DNA of 64,000 nt from Callorhinchus milii. Its lineage: Eukaryota. How positions within the stretch are numbered: the first letter of the stretch is position 1; every line of letters starts with the position of its first letter. This document shows positions 13,111-62,868 of this stretch, piece after piece. The notes beneath the pieces are model-generated. The model searched no databases and was not told the origin of the DNA. It saw only the letters and a program-made list of their open reading frames with translations. Made by a program: the position numbers and the translations under genes. The stretch covers positions 36,954,001-37,018,000 of the forward strand of contig NW_024704742.1 in the NCBI RefSeq assembly GCF_018977255.1, in the 5' to 3' direction.

Positions 13111-13342
13111 GTAAACCTGAATATTGTGTGTATATCAAGTGAATTGACCTTCGTTCAGTGATGGGATTTCGCACAAAATTATCTTATGGATTAAAAAATA
13201 ATAACCCCTGTACTGTAGCACATTTCCCAAACCAAAGTGTGTTATGTGATAATGCATGTGGCCGGCAGTAGGAAGCAGTGAACATAGCTATATAGATATA
13301 GAACCTAGCTGCTCTATGTAAACCCTGTTTGCTTCTTCACAG

Positions 13343-13464
13343 GTTCTTGGATGAGGTGCAGTCTTACTCCGACATAAACAAAATGAGCGTTCAGAATCTA
13401 GCGACAGTGTTTGGTCCAAACATACTGCGACCAAAGATTGAGGACCCAGTCACTATTATGGAAG
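13343..13464 (+). CDS. ARHGAP24: ARHGAP24 coding exon ([40 protein letters not shown])
   Basis: cttcacAG acceptor, GTaaat donor; 122 nt; RhoGAP C-terminal motif [19 protein letters not shown]. Confidence 0.95.
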
Positions 13465-15017
13465 GTAAATTTCCATATCCGGACGTGAAACTTTTTCTTC
13501 TGCAATCAATCACAAAGAATAATGTTTATGACCCAACCATAGAGCTCTTTGCTCATTGCTTATCTATATTGTTACTGCTCTCTGCCCAGCCATTGGAGGG
13601 AGGCTTAGAGACAAAACCTGACCATTCTCTATTTAGTCGTACAGCTTGAGAAGGTGGCGGGGGCTGGGTGTTGAGATCAGATTCACTCTATTTAAATAAC
13701 ATTTCACATGGTGCAGAATTTGGTAAAGTGTTGGATTCAGACTTAACTTTGAAGTTGGTTTCCTGTAGTTTCGTAAAATGATATATAAAATCGGCTTCAA
13801 TTTCAAAATTACAATTTAGAATTTACCCATTTCTAGACCCAATGAAATGCTATGTCAGTTGAGTAAATTTAGACCCAGTGGAAAATCTCTCCAAAGCAGA
13901 GCAAAGAGAGGGAAGAAAAGGGAACAATATTAATTTGTATCATATCTTTGTGCTCATATACGGTCAATACCAAATTTTAAAAAAGAAAGCCATCGAAATG
14001 TACAGCACAGAAGAAGGCCATTTGGTCAAACTTTTTGACAAAAACACCCATAACAGTCTGAGTTCTGATACTTGTATTGGAGGTAGTGATCTGACCAGGT
14101 TGTATAGTTACAAATGCAGTCCCGTTTAAAGGTACGGAAAATGTACTTAAATCTAAAAGAGAATCGAAAAGCCAGATGGAACTGATTTTTCTAACTGTAT
14201 TATATACAAGAGACATCCTCTGCAACATTCCTGAATAGAATTACATCCTCAGCCAATACGATTCATACAATAAACCTCCTGAGGTATAAAGTATACAAAC
14301 TGGCAGTGGTACTGTAAGATAAGCCACTGTGTTTGAAAGCCACTGCTGGCTATTAAAACTTAAATTAAATCAACTTTAATTAAAATGAATTGATATGACA
14401 TGTAAGATTGCTTGGGGAATTAAAGGAATTCCCATGTATTGGAATATTGCATAATTATTGCCATCTGGATGTGAGTTTGAAGGGAATATAATAAACGACC
14501 TTCATGTCATGTTGTAGTCAGTTCAACAGGCTGGAAACCTGAGTTCAATCCTCACACAAGGGGCCAGGGCTGGGGAAGACGGGATCTGTTTAACTAAGCA
14601 CTTTGGCGTTCAATGGGACAGTATTCAAACCATCAAAACACGCCCAGGAATCTCTTTTATATTCTCCATGATAGTTCACCTACAAAATACACAGTTATAG
14701 TAAATTCTGTGAAGCTATATCAAATGCAAACATCATTATTATAATAAACAAGTATAATTTGAAAGGATATAAATCACATTTGAGTACAGGAAAAGATCAT
14801 TCAACCATTGAGCCTGTTCCACTAGTTTATTACAGATCTTTTAATCCCGATGCCCTGCCCTCAGGCGAGAATGTTACCAACTGAGCCAGGCTGACACCTG
14901 AGTCCCAAAACCCATGTTCTTAAACTGCCATCGTCTTAAAATTGAAGATTAACTTAAACTTTGAAACCAGTTTTAAATTAAGCTTTAGTTTGGAAACCAA
15001 ATAATGAGCACTTGCCT

Positions 15018-15333
15018 TGGGTTTGATTCCTGGGCAGGACGAAAATGTAAGCAAGTTCTCTTACTCTACACGCCTCTGTTTACTTAGCAGTAGGTAGGAA
15101 CCTGGTTGTTATTTGATTGGTGGATCATTTTTCTGGGTGTAATAATCCCTTCGAAAGAAAAAAATGTGGTCACTCAATCCATGCCTGTTTGTGGGACACT
15201 GTTGTACGCAATTGGCTGCTGCGTTTCGCCCACAAAATATACAGTCAATTCACTTTACAGTATATACTGTGAAATGCTTTGAGACATCTCAAAGACGTGA
15301 TAAGGCACTATATCAAATGCAAGGATTATTATT
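15018..15333 (+). mobile_element. tRNA-derived SINE, long subfamily, head truncated
   Basis: B-box remnant, central ctctgtttacttagcagtagg segment, shared tail. Confidence 0.85.
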
Positions 15334-15903
15334 AATGACAGTATCTTTTCAGGACTAGCTTGCAAGATACGACTGTATTGTATTCTAAAGTTACACACCA
15401 CGCAATCTTAAATTTTAAGATGAAGAACATGAGAGATTTCAAGCTTAGTCTTTCGAAATTCAGACCGGAGAACATCATAGTTGATCCTAAGAAAGCGAGA
15501 GAGACAGTTTAATTTCCCTTTTAGCCTGTGGCACTGAGGCACATTGTATCTCTGCTACCAACAGCTTCTCTCAGATCAGCTAACTCTGCATAGACCTACG
15601 TAAACACCTACCTAAATAAAAAAAAGATTTACGTATTTACCTACGTAATTAAAAAAAATTGTTATACTGCTATTCAAGTCAGGAAGAATCACAAACTCAT
15701 TCACAGGGCTTTTACTGTAAAGTGTAGTGGCTATGTATTTTGTAAGTGTATTTACAATTTGACCTAAGATGAAACCTAGGTCTTTGTGACTCAGTTCCAA
15801 ACGGACAGCACGGAGTCCAGTGTAATAACTGTCATATGAGTGCAACCTGTAGACTAACCAATATGCTCTTCCAGAGAATTAAAAATTGATATCCCTTTTG
15901 CAG

Positions 15904-16987
15904 GTACAGTGCTGGTTCAGCAATTAATGTCGGTCTTGATAAGTGAACATAACAGGTTATTTCCCAAAGAAGGAGAGGAGATTCAGACCAGGCAGGATGG
16001 GTGCAACAACAACAATGAAATGCCAAAGAAAACCACAGTAACGTTTCCACAGCCTCTGAATAAAGAGAACAAAAAGCCAACGCCCGAGGCAGTTCGTCAG
16101 TGTTCCTGGGACAATTCAGAAACTTCACAAAGGGCAAGCAATGAGTGCGGGTCTCCAACTGCCCTGAACAGCAGCAACAGATCGGGGAGCCCCAGGACCA
16201 GCCTGAGCAAAGTGGATGTTAACAGAAGTCCACCTGTCATGGTGAAAAAAAATCCTGCGTATTCCAAGGGTAGTGGCATAGTCACCAACGGCTCCTTCAG
16301 CAGTCCTACCGAGAACCAGGAGAAAATGCAATCGTTGCCAAACGGAAGCCTGCAGGCCAGAAGGAACTCATCACTAAAAGGAACTGGGACTAAAATGGGG
16401 ACCGGCAGTGTGCAGAATGGGGGAGTGAGAATGGGAATCTCCAGTGCAGATATGATGAATTCCTCTTTAAACAACCGAATTGGAAGCTGGATGCCCAATG
16501 GGTATGTGACATTGAGAGACAGTAAGTCCAAGGACTTGGGACTCAGTGAATCTATGCAACAGAATAGACTGTCCACCTATGACAATGTTCAGCAGCAATT
16601 TTTACTTTCAAACTGTGACGACAAGCAAAGCGTGGACAGTGCCACCTGGTCCACCTCATCCTGTGAGATCTCTCTGCTAGAGAATTCAAATTCCTGTCGC
16701 TCCTCCACGACCACCTGCCCAGACCAAGATATTTACGTGGGGAACTATGAGGACCCGGCGTTGGAGGGACCGGCACACGAGCAGTCCCTTCAGACGGAAT
16801 ACGAGAACAAGTATGAGCGGAGTAGTGGGGGCAGTCGCAGTAGCCGTGGGACTAATAGCAGTGATAACAGTGACACATTTGTCTCTAATGCTTCTACGGG
16901 CAATCACAGTGCTTTGCACAGTCTGGTTGCAAGCCTGAAGCAAGAGGTAACCAAGCAGAAGATTGAGTATGAAGCAAGAATAAAAAG
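15904..16987 (+). CDS. ARHGAP24: ARHGAP24 large penultimate exon (Ser-rich spacer and start of coiled coil)
   Basis: ttttgcAG acceptor, GTaggc donor; 1084 nt; motifs KGSGIVTNGSFSS, NRLSTYDNV, SATWSTSSCEIS, HSALHSLV are those I recall from ARHGAP24/FilGAP. Confidence 0.95.
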
Positions 16988-17689
16988 GTAGGCACCTTTC
17001 AGTGAATAAAATCACTTTTGTTTCTGGTGCATTTTGTGCACATCGGGGGGGGAATGTGCTAGGAAATGGAACATTTTTCCATTTTAGGTCCGTGGTATCA
17101 GCATCAAACTCTGCAGTTAAGTTCCACACATTCTGCTGCTCCGTAAAGCTACTCAAACATTAAGCCTTAAATACAAATTCAGAAGAATTCCTTTCCGATA
17201 ATGGGAATCCCTGATGATGGACATCATGTCTATCATTGGCACTCATACTTAACCCCATAATATATGCCTCAAAATTGTCTGGTATCTTATTGTCACCACA
17301 CAGATGAGCTGACATCACCTTTGAAAGCAATACTTTGGCTGAGGTAGGTCTTAACAGTTGTATCCATTATCTACATGTGGTGCAAGCAAAATAAAATTTG
17401 CTTGCAAATAAATAGGAATAAGTACTGTTTATGTAAATTTATTAGAACATCTGAGATTTGTTTTCAGCTCATGTTACTATATTTTTAGAAATGTTGCTCA
17501 GTGTTAGGTGTACATCAATGATGCTGAGCATGAAATCGTAAAGAGACTTTCCCAGCACTGTACTATGTACTGCCTGGGCCTTGGCTTACAGGACTGTGGT
17601 TATGTCTACCTTGGTTGACTATGGACCTACAACTCCTGAGCAGCATGCTATTATAGTAATACATAAATATATAATGCCAACATTTGATA

Positions 17690-18004
17690 TAATAATCATA
17701 ATAATCTTTGCATTTGATATGCCGCTTTTCACGTCTTCTCGACGTCTTAAAGCGCTTCACAAAATATGCTGTAAAGTGAATTGACCTTATATTGTGGGCA
17801 AAACGCGGCAGCCAATTGCGCACAGCAGTGTCCCACAAACAGTCGTGGATTGAAAATGACCAATTTATTATTGTTTTGTTTTGGAAGGATTATTATTAGG
17901 TGTGTGGAGTAAGGAAATTTGCCCAAGGTTTCGCCCTGCCTGGAATTGAACCCAGGTGTCTCACTTGCAAGGCAAGTGCTCTAACCACTGAGCTACAGGA
18001 CTCC
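17690..18004 (-). mobile_element. tRNA-derived SINE, short subfamily, full length
   Basis: close match to 1861-2182. Confidence 0.88.
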
Positions 18005-18084
18005 TGTAGGATATGTAGGATAAAAAACCCTTTCATGTCAAGAGGACCTATCAATAATTATTACCTGATAATAATCCTTCAATN

Positions 18085-18308
18085 AAAAAAATAATAATTT
18101 GGACAATCAATCCACGACTTTGTGGGACCACTAGCTTATGCAGTGCATACCTGGAGAGTACTTCATGTTTTGATTGCTGTGTGCAATTGGCTGCTGCGTT
18201 TCGCCCACAAATATACAGTCAATTCACTTTACATTATATTCTGTGAAGCTCTTTAAGACGTCTTGAAGACATGAAAAGCGCTATATGAAATGCAAAGTTT
18301 ATTATTAT
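18085..18308 (+). mobile_element. SINE 3' half carrying a 46-bp insertion
   Basis: shared body/tail interrupted at 18131-18176. Confidence 0.8.
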
Positions 18309-18344
18309 TTATCAAAGGGTGGTGACTCTAGGGTCGTGACTGCA

Positions 18345-18830
18345 ATAATAATAATTTGGTATAGCACCTTATAACGTTGGAAGGACGTCTCATAGGACTT
18401 CACAGGATTTACTGTGAAAGGGAGTGACTGTGTATTTCTAAGCAAATGTGACAGCACAATTGCGAGTAGCAATATCCCACAAACAGTCATAAAAAAAGTA
18501 ACCAATTTTATTTGGGGGGTTGTTGGCCAGAACAGTGGGAGAAACTCCCTTCTCTTTTCAAATATTGCCATGGGATTTTTAATATCCTCTTGAAGAGATG
18601 GATGGGGCATCAGTTTGACATCTCATCCGAAAGATTGTGCTCTGAGATGCAGTCCGGCGTGGAGGGCGCTATATAAATCCAAATAGTTGTTGTTGCCTGT
18701 GACAATGCAACATCCCTCCCAGTGCTGGATTGGAATGTCACCTTAGACTATGTGAGTTCAAGTCCTGACATGGGATTTGAACCCACACAACCTTCTGATT
18801 CAGAGGATAAACTTCTGCCATTGAGCCAAA
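18345..18830 (-). mobile_element. Deu-domain-type SINE interrupted by a short L2-tail fragment (about 18640-18695)
   Basis: same core and head as 51545-51970. Confidence 0.7.
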
Positions 18831-19194
18831 ATGATTGTATAGGGTGGGTGGTGATTAGAAAGGTCCTACTGGTCAGGTTTAGGTTAAGCAACCTCTAGTT
18901 TATGCAGTGCATGCCTGGAGAGCACTTCATGTTTTGATTGGATAAACAGTATCAAAATAGGGTTTGATCAAGTCTGTTTCTACTTCTGAACATACTTACA
19001 CACCTATCATTTTAAACAAGTTTTGTAAAAAAATATATTTCCAGACATCACTATTCACTGTAACGTATCTCTCTCTGGCTCCAGACCTCAATTTTTATAT
19101 ATTTAAATGCAACATGGGCGCTCAGACAGAGACAGCTACAACTAGGGGCTGATGTCTCACAAACAAGTTGCCATTACTTGCTTTTCTAAATCAG

Positions 19195-19585
19195 CCTCGT
19201 TCAGGTAGTACTCTTGTCTCTCATTCAGAAGTTTGTGGGTTCATGCCCTCTGATGGGACTTTGAACTCACAAGCTAGGCTGGTTGGGAGAGCTGCATTGT
19301 TGGATGAAATGTTAAATGGAGGTCCCATCTGCCTGTTCAAATGAACGTTAAAAATCCTATGGCACTCTTCGGAAAAGAGAAGGGATTTTTTTCCTGGTGT
19401 CCTGGCCAACATTCCTGCCAGATAAACTTGGCTGTTTGCTTCATCGCTGTTTGTCGGACATTGCTGTGATTATTTGGCTACGTTTTCTCACATAAAATGT
19501 AGTCACTGCACTTTAAAGCCCTTGAAGCTTTTTGAGACATCCTTCTGATGTGAAAGGCTATTTAAAATGCAACAATTATTATTAG
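19195..19585 (+). mobile_element. Deu-domain-type SINE
   Basis: same head and core; further copies at about 20640-21005 (+) and 60690-60975 (-). Confidence 0.7.
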
Positions 19586-20207
19586 TAGTATTTTCTATGC
19601 CAGTTAACCATGACAGTAAGATGCCAGCAGGATGACAGAGAACGCATGTTGACTTGAGAACAGAGGCAGACCAATCTATAGCATTGAACGGACATATTTC
19701 TTGGTATTTGCTTGATGCAAACTTTATATTTTAAAATGTAAACTAGTGTCGTCATCTACTCCAAAAATATATCTTAGCCCCAATCTCACAAAAGCATTTC
19801 CATAATCTTAACTGTATGACATTTTCCAATTACCACATAATCTTTCTCTCTTGAGTGAGGTTGTCAATTTATTAATAATAAGAACAATCCTTAAATTTGG
19901 TGTCACCCTTTCACATCGGAAGGAAGTCCCAAAGCGTTTCATGTGATTTATTGTGAAGTGTTTCTTTGTGTTTTTGACTGTTTTTTGTGGGCTAACTCTG
20001 CATTTGAGGTTTGGGAACCAATACCCACTGAAGCTGGGAAAAATTACTTATTTTAATATTATTTTCTTTTTAAAACAAATTAATGAAGTTCAAACAACCA
20101 CACTTTTCTGGATGTTCTGAAGTAGAACTGGACTAAACTTGGTGCACCTATACCAGTTTACATGGAAAAGTTTCTTTTTGTTAAGAAAAGTTGTGTTAAA
20201 ATTGTGT

Positions 20208-20423
20208 AATAATAATAATAATAATCCTTGCATTTGATATAGCGCTTTTCACGTCTTCTAGACGTCCCAAAGCGCTTCACAGAATATATTGTAAAGTGAA
20301 TTGATTGTATATTTGTGGGCGAACGCGGCAGCCAATTGCGCACAGCAATGTCCCACAAACAGTCGTGGATTGAAAATGACCAATTTATTATTGTTTTGTT
20401 TTGGAGGGATTATTATTAGGCGT
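20208..20423 (-). mobile_element. SINE, short subfamily, 5' truncated
   Basis: near-consensus body and tail. Confidence 0.85.
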
Positions 20424-21078
20424 ATACATAGATGTAGAGAAAGACATAATAAACTGGCAGGACATCCTGGATGGGCTGAAGGGCCTCCTCCTGCCTATTA
20501 TATTCCTGTAACTATTGTATATGCCATATGGATATATATCCACTGTGTTGAAATAATCATCTTAAACTGACTGTCCAAAATGAATACCACGAACTTTCGG
20601 TCCACATCTACCCATCACATTTAACTCACACAATCTAGGCTGATGCTCCAAAACAGTGCTGGAGTGTGCTGTATTGTTGCATGAGACATTAAAAAAAATC
20701 ACGGTCACATCTTTCTGTTCAGGTGGCTGTTAAAGATCCCGTTGGTACTATTTTGAAGGAGAAGGGAGTTTCTCCCTGGTGTCCTAACCAACAAGCCCGC
20801 AGATAAAATTAATCACTCACTACATCGCCTATAACCCACAAACAGCCAATGAAGTGAATGACTTCACTGAAGGCAATTGGTTTCTCCCCACAAAATACAC
20901 AGTTCCTACACTTTACAATAAATCCTGTGAAGCGTTTTGAGACGTCCTCCTGACATGCAAGGCTTTGTATCAAATGCCGGTATTATTATTGGGATTATTA
21001 TTATTATTCATCAGCATTGAGTATTTTGCCACTTTCTTGCTTATTTGTAATTAATCACTAATTTTATGCTGTTATCAG

Positions 21079-21322
21079 TGTGGAGCAGAAGAATGTAGAG
21101 CTGGAGTCTGAATTGATGGTGCTGCATGAAGAGCTGGACCAGGAGAGGAAGAAGTACACCATGGTGGAAATCAAAATGAGGAACACCGAACGTGCCCGGG
21201 AGGATGCGGAGAAACGGAATGAAATGTTACAGAAGGAAATGGAGCAATTTTTCTCAACGTTTGGAGATCTGACTGTGGAGCCAAGAAGGCCAGAGAGGAA
21301 TAATACCATCTGGATACAATAA
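21079..21322 (+). CDS. ARHGAP24: ARHGAP24 last coding exon (coiled coil, ...[28 protein letters not shown])
   Basis: gttatcAG acceptor; TAA at 21320-21322; the TIWIQ C-terminus distinguishes ARHGAP24 from ARHGAP22/25. Confidence 0.95.
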
Positions 21323-32399: not shown

Positions 32400-32444
32400 T
32401 CACGTTCTAAAGAAGAGGGGGTTTCGCAGGCAGGCGGCTAGTCA
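32400..32444 (-). other. MAPK10: Stop-codon readthrough extension of MAPK10 (X-LAACLRNPLFFRT*)
   Basis: TGA CTA G context followed by 13 sense codons and a second TGA at 32402-32400. Confidence 0.8.
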
Positions 32445-32584
32445 CCTGCAACAACCGAGGGGTCCCGCTGAAGTTTCCAGGCTGCTGTCAGTGTCCGAGG
32501 CCAGGGTCTGATCGGTTGACATAGATGAAATGTCATTTACTGATGAAGACGGAGGAAGGCTTTCACTGCTATTCACTGCTGCAC
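32442..32584 (-). CDS. MAPK10: MAPK10 last coding exon, long (p54-type) C-terminus [47 protein letters not shown]
   Basis: distal AG of ctcAGcgcAG; TGA at 32444-32442; this tail identifies JNK3 rather than JNK1/2. Confidence 0.95.
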
Positions 32585-32589
32585 CTGCG
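32573..32589 (-). CDS. MAPK10: MAPK10 last exon, short (p46-type) C-terminus AQVQQ* via acceptor 5 nt upstream
   Basis: proximal AG gives G|CG CAG GTG CAG CAG TGA. Confidence 0.85.
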
Positions 32590-34578: not shown

Positions 34579-34656
34579 CTGAGGGGGACGGCTGTCCCTT
34601 CACAACACCATTTTTAGTTTTCTCCTCGAAATCCATCACCTCCTTGTAGATCAATT
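34579..34656 (-). CDS. MAPK10: MAPK10 penultimate coding exon ([26 protein letters not shown])
   Basis: aaacAG acceptor, GTaaat donor; 78 nt; translated by hand. Confidence 0.94.

Positions 34657-35592: not shown

Positions 35593-35982
<390 letters not shown>

Positions 35983-40139: not shown

Positions 40140-40331
<192 letters not shown>

Positions 40332-42141: not shown

Positions 42142-42378
<237 letters not shown>

Positions 42379-46977: not shown

Positions 46978-47220
<243 letters not shown>

Positions 47221-52890: not shown

Positions 52891-53139
<249 letters not shown>

Positions 53140-56326: not shown

Positions 56327-56728
<402 letters not shown>

Positions 56729-62643: not shown

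Positions 62644-62868
<225 letters not shown>

What the first reader, a model, noticed from the sequence alone, without database searches (positions are those of the whole stretch)
32400..32444. TGA-CTAG stop-codon readthrough signal with a 14-codon extension
Seen: ...TGC AGG TGA CTA GCC GCC TGC CTG CGA AAC CCC CTC TTC TTT AGA ACG TGA, i.e. GCCR-X-LAACLRNPLFFRT*. Established: UGA-CUAG is the strongest known mammalian readthrough context and MAPK10 is one of the reported readthrough genes (with AQP4, OPRK1, OPRL1). From memory the human extension starts with the same LAACLRNP and has the same length; this needs checking. Inference: a readthrough JNK3 proteoform conserved across jawed vertebrates, which would change the context of the C-terminal Cys-Cys palmitoylation motif and add another Cys. 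It applies only to the long splice form.
Basis: partly seen in the sequence, partly recalled or inferred. Interest (0 to 1): 0.75.

Follow-up and report, generated by a model that had tools for sequence, protein, structure and literature searches.

The report
Known JNK3 stop-codon readthrough signal
This is a cartilaginous fish's copy of an already published leaky stop codon in the neuronal kinase gene MAPK10 (JNK3), which lets a few percent of ribosomes add 14 extra residues; it is real but not new.

Summary
The gene is MAPK10/JNK3 of a cartilaginous fish (319 of 322 residues identical to shark MAPK10, 284 to MAPK8). Only the long splice form ends at this stop. The element is published: Loughran 2014 reports a 13-residue MAPK10 extension conserved to lampreys, with about 14% readthrough in fused reporters; a 2026 preprint measures 1.2-1.8%. 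All 26 database relatives that were called through the stop keep the 13-residue spacing (7 distinct sequences), and the window matches 9 of 9 human positions named in that preprint. No function of the extended protein turned up in my searches; the palmitoylation idea is untested. Two side points I did not find in print: the stop overlaps a 5' splice-site-like sequence, used by 35 of 222 fetched gene models and covered by a 7-bp stem; and 4 of 4 JNK1-like relatives also have Leu right after the stop, without a conserved extension. Verdict: already known, low interest.

The parts
32442..32444 (-). Annotated stop codon (TGA) of long-form JNK3; the leaky stop
32438..32441 (-). CTAG core readthrough motif (+1 to +4)
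   Evidence: motif defined in PMC4132726
32430..32437 (-). +5 to +12 element, reported as conserved at nucleotide level and needed for full MAPK10 readthrough; 32436-32430 is the 3' arm of the predicted stem
32403..32441 (-). 13 sense codons of the extension, LAACLRNPLFFRT; extra Cys at 32432-32430
32400..32402 (-). Second stop codon (TGA)
32445..32453 (-). Cys-Cys-Arg codons: C-terminal palmitoylation motif of long JNK3; last two codons TGC AGG
   Evidence: palmitoylation from papers; invariant codons
32438..32448 (-). 5' splice-site-like 11-mer overlapping the Arg codon and the stop (exon would end at 32446)
   Evidence: use in other species' gene models
32430..32449 (-). Predicted 7-bp stem: 32449-32443 (last codons plus UG of the stop) with 32436-32430
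   Evidence: pairing potential already noted in PMC4132726
32445..32584 (-). Coding part of the last exon, long (p54-type) form, downstream AG acceptor
32573..32589 (-). Coding part of the last exon, short (p46-type) form, acceptor 5 nt upstream; ends SAQVQQ at a TGA followed by ATAG, not a readthrough context
34579..34656 (-). Penultimate MAPK10 exon (78 nt)
35757..35820 (-). MAPK10 exon (64 nt)
40167..40291 (-). MAPK10 exon (125 nt)
42156..42338 (-). MAPK10 exon (183 nt)
47061..47132 (-). 72-nt alternative kinase-domain exon, beta type
52956..53027 (-). 72-nt alternative kinase-domain exon, alpha type
56512..56677 (-). MAPK10 exon with the TPY activation motif (166 nt)
62671..62809 (-). Most 5' MAPK10 exon found in the window (139 nt)

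Best explanation
This is the cartilaginous-fish orthologue of the programmed UGA-CUAG readthrough site of MAPK10/JNK3. Splicing to the downstream acceptor gives the long isoform ending Cys-Cys-Arg-UGA (shown from the sequence). CUAG plus the gene-specific +5 to +27 context makes release-factor recognition inefficient, so a near-cognate tRNA decodes UGA in a minority of ribosomes (shown for the human context in reporters, 1-14% by assay; inferred here). The residue inserted is probably Trp, Cys or Arg (recalled, not from a call). Translation runs 13 more codons to a second UGA, giving a minor JNK3 form whose Cys-Cys pair is now internal and which gains one more Cys (follows from the sequence). 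The likeliest role is altered S-acylation and hence membrane or vesicle targeting of a small JNK3 pool in neurons (inference only).
For: Orthology. Human readthrough about 14% in fused dual luciferase, 4-5%, 1.2% and 1.76% in a single-copy T2A reporter where 120 second-stop controls gave about 0%. Published invariants met here: TGC AGG before the stop, CUAG, 13 residues. 9 of 9 downstream positions whose human base is named in the preprint's mutant labels match. 26 of 222 fetched proteins were called through the stop; all 26 show W, 13 residues, W; 9 of 13 positions are invariant over the 7 distinct sequences and the window, while positions 2, 9, 12 and 13 vary. Two more such proteins. CCR palmitoylation and vesicle targeting of JNK3.
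Against: No readthrough measurement, ribosome profile or peptide for this species, and no read-level evidence that the long form is expressed in it. Loughran 2014 could not detect the full-length extended MAPK10 protein because the constructs expressed poorly. The best-controlled reporter gives under 2%. The W residues in the relatives are inferred to be TGA read as Trp by a gene caller; I saw no DNA for them, they are unnamed, and 18 of 26 are one sequence. The last residue differs here (Thr against Arg in 25 of 26), so no fixed C-terminal motif is supported.
Confidence: 0.85

Rival explanations
1. Readthrough is real, but part of the nucleotide conservation around the stop serves splicing: the Arg codon and stop form a 5' splice site (AG|GT), and the +6 to +12 bases pair with it and mask it, tuning a minor switch to alternative last exons.
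For: The site matches 8 of 11 bases of the U1-pairing consensus (dG -8.1); the gene's eight real donors score 4-8 of 11 and -1.3 to -11.6; 60 of 3491 minus-strand GT sites score as well. 35 of 222 fetched proteins go on past Cys-Cys with Arg (26) or Ser (9), the only residues an AG| junction allows, then unrelated tails; one is a 551-aa isoform labelled human and chimpanzee. The 7-bp stem has pair probabilities near 0.9. The preprint finds the MAPK10 block just upstream of the stop lowest of all and rescued only by MAPK10's own downstream sequence, and other -1 codons raise readthrough up to 7.2%, so AGG is not kept for maximal readthrough.
Against: The tails are alike only among close relatives (primates and bats, seals, a few fish pairs) and none maps to an exon here except one that is antisense to the neighbouring gene, a likely mis-prediction. 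The 222 proteins were enriched for such tails by my choice of clusters. Many are automatic models. The donor core is no more paired (0.66) than some real donors (0.16-0.86); the stem's z is -2.9 for 24 nt but -1.5 for 48 nt. Loughran 2014 found no conserved structure by RNAz. -1 codon effects correlate across genes that lack this donor.
Confidence: 0.15
2. Readthrough happens, but the peptide has no function of its own: selection keeps a leaky stop and a nearby second stop to trim output or stability of long JNK3, and the extension is a tolerated by-product.
For: Loughran 2014 describes the bases after CUAG as conserved mainly at nucleotide level. 4 of 4 JNK1-like proteins called through the stop have Leu next but no shared extension, which suggests the leaky context can persist without a conserved peptide. 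No function found in print.
Against: PhyloCSF above 99.96% of 3' UTR controls and an invariant 13-residue length in 73 sequences; RNP and FF are fixed beyond the +5 to +12 element while neighbouring positions vary.
Confidence: 0.2
3. The region is ordinary 3' UTR with no meaningful readthrough in this fish.
For: Motif and open 13 codons are each common by chance; no species-specific data.
Against: 11 of 13 residues match the commonest relative, both stops sit where published, and all 17 further human UGA-CUAG contexts tested gave 1.3-6.7%.
Confidence: 0.04

Closest known systems
Human/vertebrate MAPK10 (JNK3) readthrough extension (Loughran et al. 2014, PMC4132726; Toledano et al. 2026, bioRxiv 10.64898/2026.07.14.738498)
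   Same: Same gene, same TGC AGG TGA CTAG context, same 13-residue length, same bases at 9 of 9 named downstream positions, 11 of 13 residues equal to the commonest relative.
   Different: Leu at extension position 9 (Ala, Met, Val or Thr in relatives) and Thr as last residue (Arg or Gly in relatives). Whether this species was among the paper's 73 sequences could not be seen (supplement PDFs unreadable).
Other UGA-CUAG readthrough genes: AQP4, OPRK1, OPRL1, MDH1, LDHB, VDR
   Same: UGA followed by CUAG, low-percent readthrough in reporters.
   Different: Unrelated extensions. MDH1 and LDHB gain a peroxisomal signal; no targeting motif was found for MAPK10. Determinants beyond -3 to +4 are gene-specific.
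MAPK8 (JNK1) long isoform
   Same: Also ends in a CCR-type motif; 4 of 4 JNK1-like proteins called through the stop have Leu as next residue.
   Different: 284 of 322 identity and the other side of a 100/100 split; no conserved extension; no readthrough report found.

Membership tests
MAPK10/JNK3 orthologue | Closer to named MAPK10 than to MAPK8 or MAPK9 | tested here: met
   319 of 322 to two shark MAPK10, 311 to mammal MAPK10, 284 to MAPK8; tree of 17 rows puts it with 9 MAPK10 rows against 6 MAPK8 rows at 100/100, no MAPK9 row included; one exon against the PDB ranks MAPK10 118 bits, MAPK8 112, MAPK9 94 or less
MAPK10/JNK3 orthologue | Two last-exon acceptors 5 nt apart giving short and long C-termini | tested here: met
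   Acceptors open exons at 32589 (ends SAQVQQ) and 32584 (ends PLGCCR); named proteins with each end
MAPK10/JNK3 orthologue | Tail-to-tail neighbour ARHGAP24 (synteny recalled, not from a call) | tested here: inconclusive
   A + strand RhoGAP-domain exon lies at about 13330-13440 (Pfam E 1.6e-9); the gene name was not established
UGA-CUAG programmed readthrough genes | Annotated stop is UGA followed by CUAG | tested here: met
UGA-CUAG programmed readthrough genes | Conserved in-frame extension with fixed second stop | tested here: met
   26 of 26 read-through-called relatives, 7 distinct, at protein level only; published for 73 sequences
UGA-CUAG programmed readthrough genes | Coding-type substitution pattern (PhyloCSF) in DNA alignments | not tested
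   No DNA of relatives was obtained; published for mammals
UGA-CUAG programmed readthrough genes | Measured readthrough above background | not testable with these tools
   Measured for the human context only
Functional translational readthrough (extension confers a new property) | Endogenous extended protein detected and shown to behave differently | not testable with these tools
   Not found in print for MAPK10 in searches; tagged constructs failed in Loughran 2014

The most novel reading that the evidence does not exclude
The JNK3 stop region is a three-way overlap: a leaky UGA-CUAG stop, a 5' splice site written across the Arg and stop codons, and a 7-bp stem that hides that splice site. 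One 25-nt element would then decide between a palmitoylated CCR end, a 14-residue readthrough end and spliced alternative ends. It would explain the invariant TGC AGG codons and the MAPK10-specific upstream-downstream epistasis in the 2026 scan, part of which could be cryptic splicing of the reporter. The Leu after the JNK1 stop would make the leaky context older than the JNK1/JNK3 duplication.
Probability: 0.12. Interest if true: 0.5.

Novelty: already known. Interest (0 to 1): 0.13.

Why it matters
As found, it adds one cartilaginous-fish data point to a conservation already published back to lampreys, and shows the last residue of the extension is not fixed. The open question belongs to the human gene too: what the extended JNK3 does. 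JNK3's C-terminal cysteines are palmitoylated and target it to DLK-positive axonal vesicles, so moving them 14 residues inward could define a separately localised pool of a neurodegeneration kinase. If the overlapping splice site is used and masked by the stem, some published reporter effects at this locus would need re-reading.

Tried and rejected
No whole genome is held for this window, so no genome-wide count of stop contexts was possible. Sequencing runs: no RNA holder listed; no read-level data were obtained, so expression, use of the two acceptors and use of the stop-overlapping donor in this species stay open. Supplements of Loughran 2014 (the vertebrate alignment) were too large to read and those of the preprint were not seen; both bear on whether this species and the stem were already examined. 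The ESM Atlas gave no usable hit for the neighbour's long exon and the PDB named only generic RhoGAPs. A downstream stimulatory structure free of the ribosome was not supported: +1 onward folds worse than shuffles (z about +2). MAPK8 as the gene's identity was rejected. A downstream alternative last exon in the window was sought with 28 tails and not found. Two exon borders used were off by 1-2 nt; the acceptor test and two donor scores there are void and were redone. One label in the preprint (5G>T) conflicts with three that give C at +5; I used C. Papers PMC13526858 and 10.64898/2026.05.28.727796 held nothing on MAPK10 readthrough. Earlier scan findings: none matched.

Full report
Observation. 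The feature is on the minus strand. First TGA 32444-32442, CTAG 32441-32438, second TGA 32402-32400; 13 sense codons lie between, 14 residues with the decoded UGA. Taken alone neither trait is unusual: the 7-mer occurs 4 times in the window against 8.3 expected, and half of sampled 13-codon stretches are open (4552 of 9135). The case rests on position and conservation.

The gene. Nine JNK exons upstream of or including the last one were mapped between 62809 and 32445, all with AG acceptors and GT donors; with either of two 72-nt alternative exons they form one frame of 322 codons with stops only at codons 323 and 337. That core is identical at 319 of 322 residues to Heterodontus and Chiloscyllium MAPK10, 311 to mammalian MAPK10 and 284 to MAPK8. 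In a 17-row tree it lies with the 9 MAPK10 rows against 6 MAPK8 rows (100/100) and is 100% identical over 298 columns to a Callorhinchus milii JNK entry (no MAPK9 row). One exon searched against the PDB ranks MAPK10 above MAPK8 above MAPK9. So this is MAPK10/JNK3 of a cartilaginous fish, most likely a chimaera. A RhoGAP gene faces it tail to tail; that this is ARHGAP24 is recalled, not shown.

Isoform restriction. The last exon has two AG acceptors 5 nt apart. The upstream one (exon start 32589) gives ...SAQVQQ and stops at 32575 in a TGA ATAG context; the downstream one (32584) gives ...PLGCCR and reaches the TGA CTAG stop. Named proteins with each ending were among those fetched.

Conservation, tested at protein level. 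A search with the last exon read through the stop returned 239 proteins among 368 candidates, 120 listed; the top 10 covered the extension as well. Of 222 proteins held, 145 end at CCR, 26 run CCR-W-13 residues-W, 35 have other tails and 16 lack the motif. The 26 are unnamed; I infer that a gene caller read both TGA codons as Trp, and I saw no DNA for them. They collapse to 7 distinct sequences (18 of 26 are one), all with the second W at position 14. Nine of 13 positions (L.ACLRNP.FF) are invariant over these and the window; the window matches the commonest one at 11 of 13, differing at position 9 (Leu) and 13 (Thr). Two more of the same pattern appeared.

What is published. Loughran et al. 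2014 (PMC4132726; passages, Discussion, supplements unreadable) identified MAPK10 by PhyloCSF. They report an extension that is always 13 residues, conserved to the ancestor shared with lampreys, invariant UGC-AGG before the stop, CUA always and G next in 68 of 73, eight further bases conserved mainly at nucleotide level, seven of which could pair with the last codons and the stop, and about 14% readthrough in fused dual luciferase; tagged full-length MAPK10 expressed too poorly to show the product. Later values are lower: 6-17% as the range for the four genes (PMC5868278, passages; assay caveat in PMC5513072, passages), 4-5% (PMC12233894, passages), and 1.2% and 1.76% in a single-copy T2A reporter with second-stop controls near 0% (bioRxiv 10.64898/2026.07.14.738498; abstract and sections 5, 7, 9, 10, 13, 14, 18; passages; supplements not seen). 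That scan finds strong effects at +5 to +12 and out to +27. The window has the same base at 9 of 9 downstream positions whose human identity can be read from its mutant labels, and TGC AGG upstream. The finding is therefore an orthologous instance of a known element.

How it most likely works. Shown here: the splice geometry, the motif, the frame. Shown elsewhere for the human context: low-percent readthrough that depends on CUAG and on gene-specific flanks. Inferred: the same happens in this fish, a near-cognate tRNA inserting Trp, Cys or Arg (recalled). The product carries Cys-Cys-Arg internally and one more Cys five residues after the Arg. JNK3 is palmitoylated at the CCR motif, about 25% of it in DRG neurons, and this targets it to DLK-positive vesicles (bioRxiv 10.1101/2020.11.17.387191, passages; review PMC7464089, passages; neither mentions readthrough). 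A change in acylation or targeting is the most natural function but is untested; searches for JNK3 or MAPK10 with readthrough terms returned no functional study.

A side result: an overlapping splice site. The Arg codon and stop spell an AG|GT donor matching 8 of 11 bases of the U1-pairing consensus (dG -8.1), within the range of the gene's eight real donors (4-8 of 11; -1.3 to -11.6); 60 of 3491 minus-strand GT sites score as well. All 35 'other tail' proteins continue with Arg (26) or Ser (9), as a junction after AG requires, including a 551-aa isoform labelled human and chimpanzee and RefSeq models of eel, chinchilla and zander. A 7-bp stem joins 32449-32443 with 32436-32430 at pair probabilities near 0.9 and covers the donor core. 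The preprint reports that MAPK10's last upstream block is the weakest and is rescued only by MAPK10's own downstream sequence, and its main text has no word starting 'splic' or 'hairpin'; a search adding 'splice donor' found no paper with that term. Against this reading: the tails agree only among close relatives, none maps to a plausible exon in the window, my second cluster look-up was chosen for such tails, many are automatic models, the donor is no more paired (0.66) than some real donors (0.16-0.86), and the stem's z-score falls from -2.9 to -1.5 in a longer context. I give it about 0.15.

Paralog control. A search with the C-terminal 50 residues of a named MAPK8 returned 33 proteins among 42 candidates; I read 14 of the 15 new ones. 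Four are JNK1-like by resemblance and were called through the stop; all 4 have Leu next and then unrelated sequence. The conserved peptide is thus specific to JNK3, while a Leu codon after the stop may be older than the duplication. The codon itself was not seen, and no MAPK8 readthrough report came up.

Verdict. Observation confirmed, interpretation supported, novelty already known. Interest 0.13: a specialist would recognise it at once. The unanswered parts (function of the extension, the overlapping donor) are questions about the human gene as much as this one.

Noticed in passing
window 53027-52956 and 47132-47061, minus strand: Both mutually exclusive 72-nt kinase exons are intact and in frame; the beta-type one matches MAPK8 beta at 21 of 23 residues. 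bioRxiv 10.1101/119891 (passages) says this exon is absent from JNK3 transcripts in its seven species and diverged; fish models P0012 and P0064 carry a beta-like exon. This fish may still make a JNK3 beta form.
   Followed up: partly
window 32448-32438, minus strand: 5' splice-site-like sequence across the Arg and stop codons, apparently used by 35 of 222 fetched gene models from other species, and covered by a predicted 7-bp stem.
   Followed up: partly
proteins P0226, P0227, P0236, P0237: JNK1-like proteins called through their stop all have Leu next, then unrelated sequence.
   Followed up: partly
window about 13300-21315, plus strand: 3' exons of a RhoGAP gene facing MAPK10 tail to tail: RhoGAP exon near 13330-13440, a 377-codon open frame at 15858-16991, and a stretch at 21076-21315 hit in antisense by the tail of gene model P0030. 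Probably ARHGAP24 (name recalled).
   Followed up: partly
proteins P0156, P0163: Two shark MAPK10 entries end GPLCCR, one Gly shorter before the Cys pair than this window and bony vertebrates.
   Followed up: no
window 31619-31424, minus strand: Four AATAAA hexamers about 0.8-1.0 kb after the second stop, candidate poly(A) signals.
   Followed up: no
window 52956 and 47061 donors: Both alternative exons have weak donors with the same GTATCCTT start (4 of 11 consensus matches), as expected for a regulated mutually exclusive pair.
   Followed up: no
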